A stretch of 46,010 nt of DNA. Source: Dehalococcoidia bacterium. GTDB lineage: Bacteria > Chloroflexota > Dehalococcoidia > GIF9 > AB-539-J10. Location: the NCBI GenBank assembly GCA_022866545.1, contig JALHUO010000046.1, positions 1 through 46,010 of the forward strand. The letters run 5' to 3'. Below, piece by piece: positions 2,967-7,594 of this stretch (positions within the stretch are counted from its first letter, which is position 1; each line of letters opens with the position of its first letter). The notes below the pieces were generated by a model. It saw only the letters and a list, made by a program, of their open reading frames with translations, made no database searches and was not told where the DNA came from. Position numbers and translations under genes: made by a program.

Positions 2967-3134
2967 ATTCAGTGTTGTTCAACTAGAAGGAATTTCTGGC
3001 CGGATTGTTGCCGGCGCCGAGGCCTACATGAATGCCCTCAACCGTCTGTTGTCGGCCAGAAAAGAGTAAGTAATGTCGAAGACAAAGGTTTTGAATTTAG
3101 GAATCAGGCTCTCTGAGATATTTCAAATGCGGAG

Positions 3135-3551
3135 GTGATGAATTTGAGTTCTTTGCTGGAAATGATATTGAGGTTTTTATTGGCTGCTGCCCTGGGGGCG
3201 GGCATTGGTTATGAGCGAGAGCGGGCAGGCAAGGCAGCGGGGCTGCGCACGCATATTTTAGTTAGCTCCGGAGCAGCTCTTTTCACCTTAGCATCTATAT
3301 ACGGGTTTGATGGTGCAACGGTTGACATCTCTCGAGTTGCCGCTGGGGTGGTGGTTGGAATTGGTTTTATCGGAGCTGGCGTTATTCTCCGTGGCCAACG
3401 TGAAAAAGAGGTGGCAGGGCTAACCACTGCTGCTACCATCTGGATAACTGCTGCCGTGGGTCTGGCCGCGGGGACAGGGATGTATTTGGTCTCCATTATA
3501 GCGACTGCAGTCACCGTAGGTGTTTTGTTTCTTCCTAAGGTTCGTGGCTAA
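3135..3551 (+). CDS. mgtC: MgtC/SapB family membrane protein (membrane domain only)
   Basis: 138 aa and 4-5 hydrophobic helices. GAGIGYERE..AGLRTH and TTAATIWITAAVGLAAG motifs are typical of MgtC. Start is uncertain: GGAGG at 3131-3135 overlaps the GTG at 3135, so TTG at 3144 has better spacing. Confidence 0.8.
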   Translation: MMNLSSLLEMILRFLLAAALGAGIGYERERAGKAAGLRTHILVSSGAALFTLASIYGFDGATVDISRVAAGVVVGIGFIGAGVILRGQREKEVAGLTTAATIWITAAVGLAAGTGMYLVSIIATAVTVGVLFLPKVRG

Positions 3552-3556
3552 GATGG

Positions 3557-3603
3557 TCATTGCGAGCCTTTTGTTTGTCGTTGCGAGCAAGGCGAAGCAT
3601 TCC
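3557..3603 (+). repeat. short intergenic element: two attgcgRGc boxes separated by a T-rich spacer
   Basis: gtcattgcgagcc-ttttgtttgtcg-ttgcgagcaaggcgaagcattcc. A similar architecture occurs at 15524-15560. Confidence 0.3.
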
Positions 3604-3660
3604 TAATGAGAACCGCGGTTCAAGGACTTTGACAGAGTTCCTTACAAAGGAATATTTATC

Positions 3661-4788
3661 ATGCTCAGGATTTTGCACACCGCAGATATTCACCTCGGGG
3701 CGAAGTTCTCGGGCCTGGGCAATAGAGGCGCTTCTCAACGGGAGCAACTGAGGGCTACATTCAAGAATGTCGTTGCCACAGCCATAAATGAAAAGGTAAA
3801 CATCGTTCTAATTGCCGGAGATTTGTTCGATTCTAACCAGCAAGCGCAAAGAAATATAGACTTGGTAATAGAGCAATCTAATCTGCTTGGCTCAAATAAT
3901 ATTCCAGTTTGCCTCATCCCCGGCACGCACGATTCGCTTGATTCCTCGTCAATTTATAGAAAAGTTGACTTTGAAGGAAAATGCCCCAATCTGAAAATTT
4001 TCGCCGATGAAAATATATCCTACAAGGAATATCCCAGCCTCGATTTGACGGTATATGGAAAGCCAAATCTGAGTAATAGGTCATCCATAAGCCCGTTGAA
4101 AGGGCTCAGGCGTTCGGCCTCAAGCAAGTTTCATGTCGCCATGGCCCACGGGTCGTTATTTATCCCGGAGAAGATAGCTGAAGATGACCATGTCTTCAGG
4201 CTCGAGGAAATTGAAGCCAGTGGCATGGATTATCTGGCGCTGGGGCACTGGCATCGGGTCTATAGATGCTCGGAGAAGCTTCCAGCGTGGTATTCTGGCC
4301 CACCCGAGTGGATACCCGGGCAAACAGAGAGAGGTGGAGTGCTTTTGGTAAGCCTTTCAGCCACCGGCGAAGTTAAGGTTGAACCCAAGATGATTGGGCT
4401 TCGTAAGTATGAAGAACTGGAAATAGATGTCAGTGAGGTTCAGGATCTGCCGATGCTGAAAGCGAGAATATCCGGGCGGTCAAATCAGAATCTGGCAAGA
4501 AAGGTCACTCTTAAGGGGCTTCGCGATGCCGAACTCATAGTAAATGCTGAGGAATTGGAAACTGAACTGGGGGAGCAATTTTTCCATCTTGGCGTCACGG
4601 ATAGGTCCCATCCGAGGTCAGGAGAAGTCGCAGAGGATGAAGAGCGGCTGGTCAGGAATAGATTCATCACGCTAATGAAGAAGAAAATTGAAGGTTCGGA
4701 AGGGGAAGAGAGAGACATTGCTGAGAATGCCCTTCAGTATGGCGTGGCTCTTCTGGACGGGAAGCTGGACGCGAAGGAAGACTTGTGA
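3661..4788 (+). CDS. SbcD/Mre11/YhaO-type metallophosphoesterase (DNA repair exonuclease-like)
   Basis: 375 aa. Calcineurin-like phosphoesterase motifs HTADIHLG, IAGDLFD, IPGTHD, MAHG and LGHWH. Its stop overlaps the start of the downstream ATPase gene. Confidence 0.8.
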   Translation: MLRILHTADIHLGAKFSGLGNRGASQREQLRATFKNVVATAINEKVNIVLIAGDLFDSNQQAQRNIDLVIEQSNLLGSNNIPVCLIPGTHDSLDSSSIYRKVDFEGKCPNLKIFADENISYKEYPSLDLTVYGKPNLSNRSSISPLKGLRRSASSKFHVAMAHGSLFIPEKIAEDDHVFRLEEIEASGMDYLALGHWHRVYRCSEKLPAWYSGPPEWIPGQTERGGVLLVSLSATGEVKVEPKMIGLRKYEELEIDVSEVQDLPMLKARISGRSNQNLARKVTLKGLRDAELIVNAEELETELGEQFFHLGVTDRSHPRSGEVAEDEERLVRNRFITLMKKKIEGSEGEERDIAENALQYGVALLDGKLDAKEDL

Positions 4789-6959
4789 TGAGGTTAAGAA
4801 GGATCCGACTCAAGAACTTCAAGAGATTCGTTGATTTTCAAGCTCAGTTCAGCGCCGGGATAAATGTAGTCAAGGGTCCCCTGAATGAAATGGGGAAATC
4901 TACTTTGCTAGAAGGTATCATTGTTGCCCTTTTTCATAATCCTAAGAGCACTGCGAAGGAGCTTGAAGCTTATTCTTCCTGGGGCTCAACGAGGCAGTTT
5001 CGGACCAGTCTTGAGTTTGAAGAAAAAGGGAATGGATATTTGCTGGAGAAGGACTTTGACAAAGGGACCACCAGGCTTATTTGTGATGATACCCGGGAAG
5101 AACTCGATACTTTCAAAGAAACTTCAACAAAGATAGCTGAGTTATTGGGAACCAGATCCGATGACTTGTTCTTATGTTCTTCCTGTATTCGTCAATCTGA
5201 GGTAAGTGAAATCTCATCGGGCAAGAAGGAAATCACCGAGAGCTTGGAGGAAGTTGTGATGGGGGGCAAGGAGAGTACCTTTGCCTGGCAGGTGGTACAG
5301 AAGCTGGATAGCAAAGTTGCCGAGATGAAGAAAGGACTGGACAAACTGACCAATAATCCTGGCATCCTGGCAAGCCTCAAAAGCAAAATACAAGGCACTT
5401 CACAAAGATATGGGGAGGTTAAGGAAGAAGTCTCCAAGGTCGAGGCAAGAATAATCGAGCTGGTGGAAGTGAGTAGGCAACTGGCTGAGGCCAAAGAACA
5501 GTACGAGAATGCCAGGGCTCTGTTAGAGAAAAACAGGCAGCGTAAAGAGATTGAGGCATCTACTCAGAGGTTGGCCAAAGACTATGACGGCATAGAGAAA
5601 CTACTCGGTAGTGTAAAGAAGTTGAGGGAGGACTCTGAGAGAGCGGGCAAAGCGCTTGGGGCTATAGAAGGACTTAGAGATAAACAAGAGGCCTCGGAAC
5701 TCAGAAGGGAGCTGGATGCAATTCAGAATCGGCGTGAGGTTATCGAAAAGGACTTGGCCCAGAGGGAAGAGGAGCTAGCTGAAGCGAAGAGGAAATTGGG
5801 CAACAGGAAGTATGTTGTGTTCTTCGGTTCAGGGAAGGGAATGGTCGCTTCGATAGCAGCATTGGCAGGCGGCGTAATTGGAGTTGTAGTTGGCTTATCT
5901 TTCCTATTGAGCTTAATAGTCCTGGGTGCAGGTCTTCTGGCGGTAAGTACGTGGGCAAGAATTGCCGTCATTCGAGATAAGACCAATATTTCGGTTATCG
6001 AAGGACGCATTCAAGATATGAAAGAGACTCTCGATGACCTCGGCAGGAACGAGCGAGAGTTGCTGGCCAGAGCGAAATGCAGCACGGTTGCTGAGTTCAA
6101 CGAGAAAGAACGGGATTTCTACGATTGGCTCGATAAGAGAAATGCAGCGGACCTCCAGTTAAAGTGGGTGCCGGGGGGTAAAACGATTGAGGAGATTAAG
6201 GAACAAAAGGCGCAGGTGGCCAGGAAGCTGGCGACGGAAGAAGCAAAGCTTACCGATGACTTGAAACAGACACTTTTGAGCCCCGAACAGTACGTGGCGC
6301 TGGAAAGAAAAGTCCAGAGTCTAGAAAAAAGGCAAGCTGAGCTCGAGAAGCAGAAAAGCCGCTGCGAGATAATCATCGAGCAGGCAAGATTCAGTATAGA
6401 GGACCAGATTAGACTGGAAGAGGAACTGGAAGTGCTGCAGGAAGCTCTGAAACACGAAGATAAGAAGGTGAGAGTCTACGGATTAGCCAGTGAATTTCTC
6501 TCCCAGGCGAGAGCCGAGGTCCTTTCGTCGGTCGAAGAAGCTCTGGAGAAAGAAATTCAGAAATATCTGGCTATCTTTACTGATGACAAGTATAAGCAGG
6601 TCAAAGTCGACAAGGAAGCCCTGGAATTCTGGGTATATTCGGATGAAAAAGGAGATTGGGCCAAGCCCGAAGAGTTGAGTGGCGGGGCGATCGACGAATT
6701 CTACCTGGCCTTTCGGCTTGCCCTGGCAAAATTGATATTTGGGGATAAGAAACCGCCTCTGATGTTAGATGATCCTTTTGTTAATTTTGACTCCATTCGT
6801 CTGGCTAACACACTAAAATTCCTTAAAACGCTGGCCTCGGATTACCAAATCATCATATTCACGCTAGGCGACTCATATGACAAAGTAGCTGATAACATCA
6901 TTTTGTTAGGTGAAGAAATGGGCAACCCGTCACCCAACAGACAGGAAGGAGGTGATTAG
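4785..6959 (+). CDS. SMC/Rad50-like AAA ATPase of the YhaN (SbcE) type, with a central two-helix hydrophobic hairpin
   Basis: 724 aa. Walker A GPLNEMGKST (res 31-40), long heptad-rich Glu/Lys/Leu arms, signature LSGGAIDEFYLAFRLALA and Walker B PPLMLDDPFVNFD at the C-terminus. Residues 343-396 are uncharged and hydrophobic. Confidence 0.75.
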   Translation: MMRLRRIRLKNFKRFVDFQAQFSAGINVVKGPLNEMGKSTLLEGIIVALFHNPKSTAKELEAYSSWGSTRQFRTSLEFEEKGNGYLLEKDFDKGTTRLICDDTREELDTFKETSTKIAELLGTRSDDLFLCSSCIRQSEVSEISSGKKEITESLEEVVMGGKESTFAWQVVQKLDSKVAEMKKGLDKLTNNPGILASLKSKIQGTSQRYGEVKEEVSKVEARIIELVEVSRQLAEAKEQYENARALLEKNRQRKEIEASTQRLAKDYDGIEKLLGSVKKLREDSERAGKALGAIEGLRDKQEASELRRELDAIQNRREVIEKDLAQREEELAEAKRKLGNRKYVVFFGSGKGMVASIAALAGGVIGVVVGLSFLLSLIVLGAGLLAVSTWARIAVIRDKTNISVIEGRIQDMKETLDDLGRNERELLARAKCSTVAEFNEKERDFYDWLDKRNAADLQLKWVPGGKTIEEIKEQKAQVARKLATEEAKLTDDLKQTLLSPEQYVALERKVQSLEKRQAELEKQKSRCEIIIEQARFSIEDQIRLEEELEVLQEALKHEDKKVRVYGLASEFLSQARAEVLSSVEEALEKEIQKYLAIFTDDKYKQVKVDKEALEFWVYSDEKGDWAKPEELSGGAIDEFYLAFRLALAKLIFGDKKPPLMLDDPFVNFDSIRLANTLKFLKTLASDYQIIIFTLGDSYDKVADNIILLGEEMGNPSPNRQEGGD

Positions 6960-6961
6960 AG

Positions 6962-7594
6962 ATGGGTTATATTTCCCCGACATTGGCCATAAGGAATATG
7001 AAGCAGACGATTCAATTCTATAGAGATTCCCTGGGATTTAAGATGGGGATGGTTTTCCCTGACGCTGACAACCCGGAGTATGCCGACCTATCGAAAGATG
7101 GAATGGTTGTCATGTTGGTACCGGCCAAAAATGTGGGTATCGGTAGCAAGCAAAGATTGGGAATCGGCGTGAACTTGTATATGCAAATCGATGGGGATAT
7201 AGATGAATACTGCAATGAGCTAAAGAACAAGGGCGTTAAGGTTGTAGTTGACATAAAAGACGAGCCGTTTGGCATCAGGGACTTCACAGTCGAGGATATC
7301 AACGGGTATAGACTGACATTTAACCAGGTCTCCAAGGCTGTTAAGACTTGTATGAGCTGCGGCATGCCCGTGACCAGGCTCGAGGATTTCGGCGGAGGAA
7401 ACCCTGAGAACTTGTACTGCGTATACTGTTCAAACCGGGATGGCAGCCTCAAAAGCCATAAAGAGGTGTTCGAGGGCATGGTCAACTTCATGATGACGTC
7501 TCAGAAGATGGACAGAAACACTGCTGAGAGCGCAGCGAAAGAGCGTATGGCAAAGATGCCTGCTTGGAGTGGTAGAGCCGGAGTTATACGTTAG
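6962..7594 (+). CDS. VOC (glyoxalase/bleomycin-resistance fold) domain fused to a C-terminal zinc-ribbon domain
   Basis: 210 aa. N-terminal beta-alpha-beta-beta-beta-like pattern (IQFYRDSLGF...GYRLTF). C-terminal CMSCGMP...YCVYC four-Cys ribbon. GGAGG SD lies 7 nt upstream and the gene starts 3 nt after the ATPase stop. Confidence 0.7.
   Translation: MGYISPTLAIRNMKQTIQFYRDSLGFKMGMVFPDADNPEYADLSKDGMVVMLVPAKNVGIGSKQRLGIGVNLYMQIDGDIDEYCNELKNKGVKVVVDIKDEPFGIRDFTVEDINGYRLTFNQVSKAVKTCMSCGMPVTRLEDFGGGNPENLYCVYCSNRDGSLKSHKEVFEGMVNFMMTSQKMDRNTAESAAKERMAKMPAWSGRAGVIR

What the first reader, a model, noticed from the sequence alone, without database searches (positions are those of the whole stretch)
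5811..5972. Rad50/SbcC-like ATPase whose coiled-coil apex is a two-helix membrane hairpin instead of a zinc hook
The 724-aa ATPase has split ABC-type head motifs at its two ends and Glu/Lys/Leu-rich arms. Almost exactly at the midpoint (residues 343-396 of 724) the sequence becomes YVVFFGSGKGMVASIAALAGGVIGVVVGLSFLLSLIVLGAGLLAVSTWARIAVI. These are two ~20-residue uncharged helices flanked by basic residues. No CxxC hook lies at the apex, and the only CxxC (CSSC, res 131-134) is near the head. With the upstream, stop/start-overlapping SbcD/Mre11-type phosphoesterase, this predicts a nuclease-ATPase machine tethered to the membrane by the tip of its arms. I believe it belongs to the Bacillus YhaO/YhaN (SbcE) type of pair. 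I do not know whether the membrane hairpin has been examined functionally. Membrane-tethered SMC-like nuclease modules are also a recurring theme in anti-phage and plasmid defence.
Basis: partly seen in the sequence, partly recalled or inferred. Interest (0 to 1): 0.6.

Follow-up and report, generated by a model that had tools for sequence, protein, structure and literature searches.

The report
Membrane-hairpin Rad50-like ATPase (SbcE/YhaN type)
A Dehalococcoidia bacterium encodes an Mre11-like nuclease and a Rad50-like ATPase whose long arm ends in two membrane-type helices instead of a zinc hook; this is the normal, conserved design of the widespread but barely studied SbcE/YhaN family, so the gene is an ordinary member of a known kind.

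Summary
ORF 4785..6959 (+) encodes a Rad50/SbcC-type split ABC ATPase. Residues 343-396, exactly window 5811-5972, hold a 40-residue charge-free stretch that no shuffle of the protein reproduces. AlphaFold2 folds it as helix-turn-helix at the tip of the coiled coil. There is no apex CxxC.

An Mre11/SbcD-type phosphoesterase (3661..4788) with intact metal-binding residues overlaps its start.

The hairpin is not special to this gene. Of 196 full-length relatives down to about 22% identity, 182 carry the same two hydrophobic helices at 0.51 of their length. These relatives come from at least 10 bacterial phyla and one archaeal bin. The loop is about 3 residues, the flanks are rich in K/R, and two glycines are conserved.

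Bacillaceae YhaN (SbcE), identified by yhaO-yhaN-yhaM synteny, has the same hairpin. In a head-only tree it falls in one clade with the window protein, apart from hook-bearing SbcC.

The neighbourhood is housekeeping, inside leucine-biosynthesis genes, and syntenic in relatives. It is not a defence island.

One local point: this genome and three other sampled Dehalococcoidia genomes lack canonical SbcCD, so the membrane-type pair is their only Mre11/Rad50-like system.

Verdict: new member of a known, under-described family.

The parts
3661..4788 (+). Mre11/SbcD-type (YhaO/SbcF-like) phosphoesterase, 375 aa; probable nuclease subunit
   Evidence: Pfam Metallophos 57 bits. NCBIfam Mre11/SbcD models match but fall below their cut-offs. 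P. furiosus Mre11 in the PDB matches at E 1e-10. It is 30% identical over 280 aa to Bacillaceae YhaO, E 4e-23. Metal and catalytic residues D9, H11, D54, H90, H163, H196 and H198 are conserved in 52-53 of 53 family partners. Motif III reads GTHD (35/53) or GNHD (18/53).
4785..6959 (+). Rad50/SbcC-like ATPase of the SbcE/YhaN type, 724 aa from GTG 4785 (723 aa from ATG 4788)
   Evidence: A family profile hits archaeal and Thermotoga Rad50 heads at E 1e-44 to 1e-27 and E. coli SbcC at 1e-15. The top Foldseek hit is Rad50 in 7zr1.
4875..4904 (+). Walker A (P-loop) GPLNEMGKST, residues 31-40, with a one-residue insertion typical of this clade
   Evidence: N34, G37 and K38 are invariant in 46 sequences spanning several phyla. 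L33 is absent in 21 of 46.
5364..5804 (+). Outgoing coiled-coil arm (residues about 194-340)
   Evidence: AlphaFold2 gives helices 194-293 and 300-340. That is about 150 residues, roughly 22 nm if fully helical (inference).
5838..5891 (+). Predicted membrane helix 1 (residues 352-369), with conserved G363 and G366
   Evidence: G363 is G in 39/46 and G366 in 30/46 (plus 9 A).
5892..5900 (+). Tight turn (residues 370-372, G-L-S; G-P-x in most close relatives)
   Evidence: AlphaFold2 places the turn at 369-371. The family's median loop is 3 residues. Close relatives carry a proline at the turn.
5901..5957 (+). Predicted membrane helix 2 (residues 373-391), with near-invariant G381
   Evidence: G381 is G in 44/46.
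5958..6578 (+). Returning coiled-coil arm (residues about 392-598)
   Evidence: AlphaFold2 gives helices 372-429, 435-461, 468-487, 500-532 and 538-598.
6675..6686 (+). ABC signature motif LSGG (residues 631-634)
   Evidence: L631 is conserved in 45/46 and S632 in 46/46.
6759..6773 (+). Walker B LMLDD (residues 659-663); it reads 'DD' rather than the usual 'DE'
   Evidence: D662 and D663 are invariant in 46/46. The H-loop position after T693 is Leu here and His in only 9/46.

Best explanation
The two overlapping genes encode an SbcF/SbcE (YhaO/YhaN)-type relative of Mre11-Rad50/SbcCD.

**Shown by sequence, profile and fold comparison**
- The ATPase has a Rad50-like split ABC head.
- It has two antiparallel helical arms of about 150-180 residues.
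- At the exact midpoint it has two hydrophobic helices of about 19 residues joined by a 3-residue turn.
- The partner keeps the Mre11 metal-binding residues.

**Inferred**
- The hairpin inserts into the cytoplasmic membrane with both ends in the cytoplasm. The nuclease-ATPase head then hangs roughly 20 nm below the membrane.
- ATP binding engages two heads around DNA, as in Rad50, and licenses the nuclease to process DNA ends or hairpins.
- The hairpin takes the structural place of the zinc hook. It probably brings two protomers together by confinement in the membrane plane and by helix packing through the conserved glycines G363, G366 and G381.
- The invariant Walker B 'DD' and the frequent loss of the H-loop histidine suggest slow ATP turnover, that is, a long-lived clamp state.

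**Biological role**
- By analogy with B. subtilis SbcE, the role would be double-strand-break repair and processing of DNA at the membrane, such as incoming transforming DNA.
- In this genome it is the only Mre11/Rad50-like pair, so it presumably performs the general SbcCD-type end-processing function.
For: - **Head homology.**
- **Hairpin.** Its hydrophobicity and its rarity by chance. Helix-turn-helix at the apex.
- **Family-wide conservation.** 182 of 196 full-length relatives have two hydrophobic segments centred at 0.513 +/- 0.010 of the length. The median loop is 3 residues. Flanks hold 21-23% K/R against 15% background and 9-10% D/E against 17%. None of the relatives checked has an apex CxxC. 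The conserved glycines are shown.
- **Operon partner.** A phosphoesterase sits upstream in 52/54 loci, mostly with overlapping stop and start. Its nuclease residues are conserved.
- **Bacillaceae YhaN.** It is identified by yhaO-yhaN-yhaM synteny and carries the same apex. It shares 38% identity over the C-terminal head.
- **Head-only tree.** All 34 hairpin proteins, including YhaN, form one clade (SH-aLRT 99), apart from the five bacterial hook-bearing SbcC, which form their own clade (SH-aLRT 96).
- **B. subtilis data.** The SbcE central domain and the full-length protein are insoluble in E. coli. SbcE acts in DSB repair and transformation and gathers at the competence pole.
- **Housekeeping synteny.**
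- **Sole pair in this genome.**. Three further Dehalococcoidia genomes also have only this type.
Against: - No experiment shows membrane insertion for any family member.
- SbcE-YFP foci in B. subtilis were described as lying on nucleoids and moving between poles within a minute, not as a membrane stain.
- Helix 1 is only marginally hydrophobic, at about 0 kcal/mol on a simple scale.
- pLDDT in the hairpin is only 59-70.
- The match to Pfam AAA_27 covers only model positions 1-59 at 25.8 bits, whereas true YhaN covers 1-200 at 88 bits. The window protein scores higher on archaeal Rad50 models, so it is a distant, Rad50-like member.
- Dimerisation through the hairpin, and slow ATP turnover, are inferences from residue conservation only.
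- The hairpin set in the tree was gathered by similarity to the query. Only one archaeal hook-bearing Rad50-like protein was included, and it sits on a long branch.
Confidence: 0.8

Rival explanations
1. The hydrophobic hairpin is not membrane-inserted. It is a soluble dimerisation core: two hairpins form a buried four-helix bundle that replaces the zinc hook in a cytoplasmic complex.
For: SbcE-YFP foci were reported on nucleoids and were highly mobile. Helix 1 is only marginally hydrophobic. The conserved glycines fit tight helix packing of any kind.
Against: Forty consecutive uncharged residues rich in Gly/Ala/Val/Leu/Ile would still expose a large greasy surface in a four-helix bundle. Both flanks follow the positive-inside pattern across 182 proteins. 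Some members insert a 40-50-residue loop between the two helices (L077, L083), which fits an outside loop better than a bundle tip. The central domain is insoluble when expressed.
Confidence: 0.1
2. The hairpin is a monotopic or re-entrant wedge in the inner leaflet and does not span the bilayer. It would tether the complex peripherally and possibly sense curvature, for example at poles.
For: The loop is extremely short, with a median of 3 residues and often no polar residue. The helices are 18-19 residues long and glycine-rich. B. subtilis SbcE localises to poles.
Against: Two 18-19-residue helices are long enough to span the bilayer. Members with charged or long loops (P0114 'EH'; L077 and L083) suggest the turn reaches the far side. 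No amphipathic pattern was found in the window protein's helices.
Confidence: 0.15
3. The pair is a membrane-tethered anti-phage or anti-plasmid defence module, Lamassu- or Wadjet-like, rather than a repair system.
For: The best PADLOC hit is LmuB at 74 bits, with weak PtuA and GajA P-loop hits. A nuclease head held under the membrane would be well placed to meet incoming DNA. A ParE-like toxin pair lies a few kb away in relatives.
Against: The PADLOC hits are weaker than the Rad50 hits and cover generic SMC-like parts. No LmuA-, JetABD- or other effector partner is present. The locus sits inside leu, pab and mgtC genes with synteny kept at 70% protein identity. The pair is single-copy and is the only Mre11/Rad50-like system in the genome. 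The family is present as a core gene in Bacilli.
Confidence: 0.07

Closest known systems
Bacillus subtilis SbcE (YhaN) with SbcF (YhaO) (Krishnamurthy et al. 2009/2010, PMC2811018)
   Same: - Rad50/SbcC-like split head, and no CxxC hook.
- A hydrophobic central domain exactly at the midpoint, with a proline or small-residue turn.
- An Mre11-like phosphoesterase gene directly upstream.
- Walker B reads 'DD'.
- Same clade in the head-only tree.
   Different: - The window protein is 724 aa against about 960-1005 aa, so its arms are shorter.
- Only the P-loop end matches Pfam AAA_27.
- Its head scores better on archaeal Rad50 models.
- There is no yhaM exoribonuclease downstream.
- The H-loop has Leu instead of Cys-His.
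- Motif III of the nuclease is GTHD rather than GNHD.
- In this genome the pair is not accompanied by a canonical SbcCD.
Canonical SbcCD / Mre11-Rad50 (E. coli SbcCD 6s6v; P. furiosus, M. jannaschii and T. maritima Rad50 heads)
   Same: - ABC head fold and motifs.
- Antiparallel coiled-coil arm.
- Mre11-type nuclease partner encoded upstream with overlapping genes.
   Different: - The apex is a hydrophobic helical hairpin, not a CxxC zinc hook. Hook-bearing SbcC proteins from the same class carry CP(V/L/I)CG at their midpoint.
- Scores fall far below the NCBIfam equivalog cut-offs.
- It forms a separate clade.
- Walker B is DD, and the H-loop His is mostly absent.
Lamassu LmuB and other defence SMC-like ATPases (Wadjet JetC, Septu PtuA, Gabija GajA)
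   Same: SMC/Rad50-like head and coiled coil; weak profile hits and fold hits.
   Different: - No effector or kleisin-like partner genes are present.
- The context is housekeeping and syntenic.
- The partner is an Mre11-type nuclease.
- A membrane hairpin is not, to my knowledge, a feature of those families.

Membership tests
SbcE/YhaN with SbcF/YhaO | Rad50/SbcC-like ABC ATPase head split between the N- and C-termini | tested here: met
   Pfam SMC_N, AAA_15, AAA_23 and AAA_27. Profile against PDB Rad50 heads, both lobes, E 1e-44. Top Foldseek hit is Rad50.
SbcE/YhaN with SbcF/YhaO | Match to Pfam PF13514 (AAA_27, YhaN N-terminal domain) above the gathering score | tested here: met
   25.8 bits against a cut-off of 22, but only model positions 1-59 of 206 are covered. 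Bacillaceae YhaN gives 88 bits over positions 1-200. The pass is marginal.
SbcE/YhaN with SbcF/YhaO | No CxxC hook; a conserved hydrophobic central domain between the two heptad-repeat arms (as described in PMC2811018) | tested here: met
   The same feature occurs in Bacillaceae YhaN and in 182/196 relatives.
SbcE/YhaN with SbcF/YhaO | Mre11/SbcD-like phosphoesterase (YhaO/SbcF) encoded directly upstream | tested here: met
   The 3661..4788 gene overlaps the ATPase start. It is 30% identical to YhaO. The arrangement is present in 52/54 loci.
SbcE/YhaN with SbcF/YhaO | Head domains group with Bacillus-type YhaN rather than with hook-bearing SbcC | tested here: met
   Head-only IQ-TREE: all 34 hairpin proteins, including 3 Bacillaceae YhaN, form one clade (SH-aLRT 99). 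Five hook-bearing SbcC form a separate clade (96). Caveat: hook-bearing archaeal Rad50 proteins were sampled thinly.
SbcE/YhaN with SbcF/YhaO | Role in double-strand-break repair and transformation; physical SbcE-SbcF complex | not testable with these tools
   Known only from B. subtilis genetics, microscopy and two-hybrid data.
Canonical SbcCD / Mre11-Rad50 | CxxC zinc hook at the coiled-coil apex | tested here: not met
   The only CxxC is at residues 131-134, next to the Q-loop. The apex is the hydrophobic hairpin.
Canonical SbcCD / Mre11-Rad50 | Scores above NCBIfam equivalog cut-offs for Rad50/SbcC and Mre11/SbcD | tested here: not met
   Best Rad50 model 105.7 bits against a cut-off of 1000. 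The sbcd subfamily model gives 65.6 bits against 77.65.
Canonical SbcCD / Mre11-Rad50 | Mre11 phosphoesterase motifs I-V with metal-binding residues | tested here: met
   D9/H11, D54, (T89)H90, H163 and H196/H198 are conserved in 52-53/53. The motif III Asn is replaced by Thr in 35/53.
Lamassu (LmuB) / other defence SMC-like systems | Co-encoded effector or partner genes (LmuA, LmuC, JetABD and the like) and a variable defence-island context | tested here: not met
   The neighbours are mgtC, pabA, pabC-like, leuB, cimA/leuA and a glyoxalase gene. Synteny is kept in relatives at 70% identity. PADLOC gives no hit for the third gene and only a weak generic hit for the nuclease.

The most novel reading that the evidence does not exclude
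In the whole SbcE/YhaN clade, the membrane hairpin is the functional replacement of the Rad50 zinc hook. It both anchors the Mre11/Rad50-type machine to the cytoplasmic membrane and pairs protomers inside the bilayer through the conserved glycines. The clade spans at least ten bacterial phyla and reaches an archaeal bin. In lineages such as this Dehalococcoidia family, which have lost canonical SbcCD, all Mre11/Rad50-type DNA-end processing would then take place at the membrane. That implies broken or incoming DNA ends are brought to the envelope for repair.
Probability: 0.35. Interest if true: 0.65.

Novelty: new member of a known kind. Interest (0 to 1): 0.4.

Why it matters
Rad50/SbcC function is thought to depend on the zinc hook at the tip of the arms. 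A large, phylogenetically broad sister family replaces the hook with a membrane hairpin, and this has not been studied experimentally in any paper I could search.

If the anchor is real, it defines a membrane-tethered class of DNA-end-processing machines. It would also explain why B. subtilis SbcE and SbcF are insoluble and gather at the DNA-uptake pole.

This particular gene adds little beyond another member. It does show that some small-genome Dehalococcoidia rely on this type alone, which makes the family's function more than an accessory one.

Tried and rejected
- **Locus search with the 41-sequence alignment A2** failed because no conserved stretch was found. The closer alignment A3 worked.
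- **Literature searches** for a described transmembrane feature of YhaN/SbcE, or for membrane-anchored Rad50/SMC-like proteins, found nothing relevant beyond the 2009 paper.
- **NCBIfam** holds no model that recognises even a bona fide Bacillaceae YhaN, so it could not serve as a membership test.
- **Defence reading rejected.** PADLOC hits are generic and the context is housekeeping and syntenic.
- **mgtC linkage rejected as functional.** It is found only in the close clade, in 8 of 54 loci.
- **Glyoxalase/zinc-ribbon gene rejected as a fixed third cistron.** It lies within 6 kb in only 2 of 54 loci, and other genes separate it from the ATPase in relatives.
- **Search of the own genome with a hook-bearing Dehalococcoidia SbcC** found nothing. 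This is a weak negative; it agrees with the single SbcD-like hit.
- **Promoter and terminator scan** was no better than chance.
- **The second structure job** was not used.
Full report
**1. What is in the sequence**

ORF 4785..6959 (+) encodes 724 aa from the GTG start.

G352-A391 is a 40-residue run without D, E, K or R, in a protein that is 34% charged. None of 20,000 shuffles produced a run that long. The Kyte-Doolittle 19-residue mean peaks at 2.67 here; the maximum elsewhere is 1.19.

A simple sum on the Hessa biological scale, with values recalled from memory, gives about +0.1 to +0.3 kcal/mol for helix 1 and -0.5 to -2.0 kcal/mol for helix 2. No window outside this region falls below +7.9.

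The flanks are basic. The only CxxC (CSSC, 131-134) lies next to the Q-loop strand, not at the apex.

The upstream gene 3661..4788 ends in ...TTGTGATG..., so its stop overlaps the ATPase start. The likely true start is ATG 4788, behind a GGAAG-type ribosome-binding site. That start gives the 723-aa product found in databases.

**2. What the two proteins are**

*The ATPase.*
- It hits Pfam SMC_N, AAA_15, AAA_23 and AAA_27. Only AAA_27 is above its cut-off, and only over the P-loop end.
- It hits archaeal Rad50 NCBIfam models at up to 106 bits, far below their equivalog cut-offs.
- A profile of the family hits both lobes of solved Rad50 heads at E 1e-44 to 1e-27, and E. coli SbcC at 1e-15.
- An AlphaFold2 model built on a 46-sequence alignment has mean pLDDT 83 and pTM 0.51. 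It shows a head, long helices 194-340, helix 350-368, a turn at 369-371, and helix 372-429 continuing into the returning arm.
- Its best structural matches are Rad50 chains.

*The upstream protein.*
- It is a calcineurin-like phosphoesterase most similar to Mre11/SbcD.
- The Mre11 metal-binding residues are conserved in 52-53 of 53 family partners.
- Motif III reads GTHD in 35 and GNHD in 18 of them.

**3. The hairpin is a family trait**

A full HMMER scan of 1.84 billion cluster representatives gave 405 hits at E <= 1e-30. I inspected the top 150, at 26-65% identity.

A scan of species-representative genomes gave 78 loci. They come from:
- Chloroflexota
- Bacillota, including Bacillaceae
- Armatimonadota
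- WS1
- Saccharibacteria and Parcubacteria
- Wirthbacteria
- Cloacimonadota
- Spirochaetota
- Thermodesulfobacteriota
- Planctomycetota
- one Methanocellaceae bin

Of 196 full-length proteins, 182 have two hydrophobic 18-residue segments. The main measures are:

| Feature | Value |
|---|---|
| Centre of the pair | 0.513 +/- 0.010 of the protein length |
| Median loop between the helices | 3 residues (10th-90th percentile 1-9) |
| K/R in the 15-residue flanks | 21-23%, against 15% background |
| D/E in the flanks | 9-10%, against 17% background |

The flank pattern is what is expected if both ends stay in the cytoplasm.

None of the relatives checked has an apex CxxC.

Across phyla, three glycines stand out:
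- G363 in helix 1 is G in 39/46.
- G366 in helix 1 is G in 30/46, plus A in 9.
- G381 in helix 2 is G in 44/46.

G363 and G381 lie at similar distances from the turn. This fits glycine-mediated helix packing.

An Mre11-like gene sits directly upstream in 52 of 54 loci, usually with overlapping stop and start.

**4. Relation to Bacillus YhaN/SbcE**

Loci from Fredinandcohnia, Litchfieldia and Bacillus sp. carry the order yhaO-like (411 aa), a 1005-aa ATPase, then a yhaM-like exoribonuclease. This is the arrangement described for B. subtilis.

At the midpoint their ATPase reads ...LLFYGMGVALFLSSVYFYI-SHEW-VTGGILTVLAILMLPIG.... That is the same two-helix apex, including the conserved proline noted in 2009.

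Pairwise comparisons:
- The window ATPase shares 38% identity over the C-terminal head, E 4e-22.
- The nucleases share 30% over 280 aa, E 4e-23.

I built a tree from the head segments only: the N-terminal 175 plus the C-terminal 160 residues, so the hairpin itself is excluded. All 34 hairpin proteins, including the Bacillaceae YhaN on a long branch, form one clade (SH-aLRT 99). Five hook-bearing SbcC proteins form their own clade (SH-aLRT 96). Four of these are from Dehalococcoidia and one is from the same Fredinandcohnia genome; all carry CP(V/L/I)CG at their midpoint.

Caveats:
- The hairpin set was collected by similarity to the query.
- Only one archaeal hook-bearing Rad50-like protein was available, and it has a long branch.
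- The window protein is a distant, Rad50-like member. True YhaN matches Pfam AAA_27 over 200 positions at 88 bits, while the window protein matches 59 positions at 26 bits.

**5. Context**

The pair lies between mgtC and a glyoxalase/zinc-ribbon gene, inside pabA, pabC-like, leuB and cimA/leuA genes.

The same order is kept in relatives whose ATPase is only about 70% identical. This argues for vertical, housekeeping inheritance.

The mgtC linkage is limited to the close clade, and the glyoxalase gene is not a constant neighbour.

PADLOC gives only generic SMC-like similarity and no partner genes.

**6. A local peculiarity**

The window's genome is 1.75 Mb and 96% complete. It has a single SbcD-like gene, the one in this window, and no match to a hook-bearing SbcC from its class.

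In a sample of 81 Dehalococcoidia genomes:
- 60 have a canonical SbcD above the family cut-off.
- Seven have a match to the YhaN-type ATPase profile.
- Four of those seven (this genome, G041, G014 and G065) have no canonical SbcD.

In these lineages the hairpin type is therefore the only Mre11/Rad50-like system.

**7. Mechanism**

*Shown:* the architecture, the conservation, the intact nuclease residues and the intact ATP-binding motifs.

*Inferred:*
- The hairpin inserts in the membrane with both arms in the cytoplasm. The head then hangs about 20 nm below the membrane.
- ATP-driven head engagement clamps DNA and licenses the nuclease, as in Rad50-Mre11.
- The hairpin replaces the hook as the apex-joining element.

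Two features suggest slow ATP hydrolysis, but this is untested:
- The Walker B 'DD' is invariant in 46/46.
- The H-loop position is His in only 9/46, and Leu in the window protein.

*B. subtilis evidence that fits*:
- The central domain, and the full-length SbcE and SbcF proteins, are insoluble in E. coli.
- SbcE acts in double-strand-break repair.
- SbcE loss lowers transformation 20-fold.
- SbcE gathers at the competence pole in a ComK-dependent manner.

*Evidence that does not fit neatly:* foci were described as lying on nucleoids and as rapidly mobile.

**8. Novelty**

The 2009 paper recognised a 'unique', hydrophobic, conserved central domain but did not read it as a membrane anchor. Later papers list SbcEF as poorly characterised. 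No searchable paper addresses the hairpin.

Automatic database annotation may already mark these helices as transmembrane. I recall this for UniProt's YhaN entry but could not check it.

Earlier notes from this scan report the same architecture in many other genomes, with the same conclusion. They are not independent evidence, but my own analysis reaches the same result.

The gene is a new member of a known, under-described family.

Noticed in passing
L050 (Methanocellaceae archaeon UBA148) 2997-5099; L111 in the same genome: The hairpin-type ATPase of this archaeal bin nests among Chloroflexota sequences on a short branch. This suggests recent transfer or a binning error. The same genome also encodes a 669-aa hook-bearing Rad50-like protein with CIWCG at its midpoint.
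   Followed up: partly
L077 6001-8694 and L083 3672-6368 (Syntrophothermus / Bacillota): In these members a loop of about 40-50 residues (…AVVAGSALPVTKLFGVGNTVFGKWGARIVHALPGG…) separates the two hydrophobic helices, in place of the usual 3-residue turn. It may be an extracytoplasmic insert.
   Followed up: no
window 6759-6773 and 6861-6869 (residues 659-663 and 693-695): Walker B reads DD, not DE, in all 46 aligned family members. The H-loop position after the conserved Thr is His in only 9 of 46, and Leu in the window protein. This is unusual for a Rad50-like ATPase and hints at slow hydrolysis.
   Followed up: partly
window 3922-3933 (nuclease residues 88-91): Phosphoesterase motif III is GTHD instead of the canonical GNHD in 35 of 53 family nucleases (the window protein plus 52 partners). 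The Bacillaceae YhaO proteins keep GNHD.
   Followed up: partly
window 6962-7594: A glyoxalase/VOC-fold plus zinc-ribbon gene starts 3 nt after the ATPase stop. In relatives, however, leuC, PEMT or DUF3795 genes separate it from the ATPase. It lies within 6 kb in only 2 of 54 loci. It is probably not a fixed part of the system.
   Followed up: partly
L128, L129, L133 (Dehalococcoidia genomes G011, G042, G067): In these loci a canonical-scoring SbcD gene is not followed by an SbcC-like ATPase gene within the fetched region. Standalone SbcD-like nucleases therefore seem common in the class.
   Followed up: no
L092 (Bacillus timonensis) 3372-6303: The yhaN orthologue appears as three consecutive ORFs (436 aa, 420 aa and a C-terminal piece). 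It is either a pseudogene or carries assembly frameshifts.
   Followed up: no
window 3629-3656: A promoter-like TTGACA-16-AATATT ends 5 nt before the nuclease start codon (3661). If real, this would imply a leaderless or very short-leader transcript. The scan as a whole was no better than chance.
   Followed up: no
window 4875-4904: The P-loop of the window's clade carries a one-residue insertion: GPLNEMGKST against the family consensus GPNEAGKST. The insertion is conserved among relatives of 68-100% identity.
   Followed up: no
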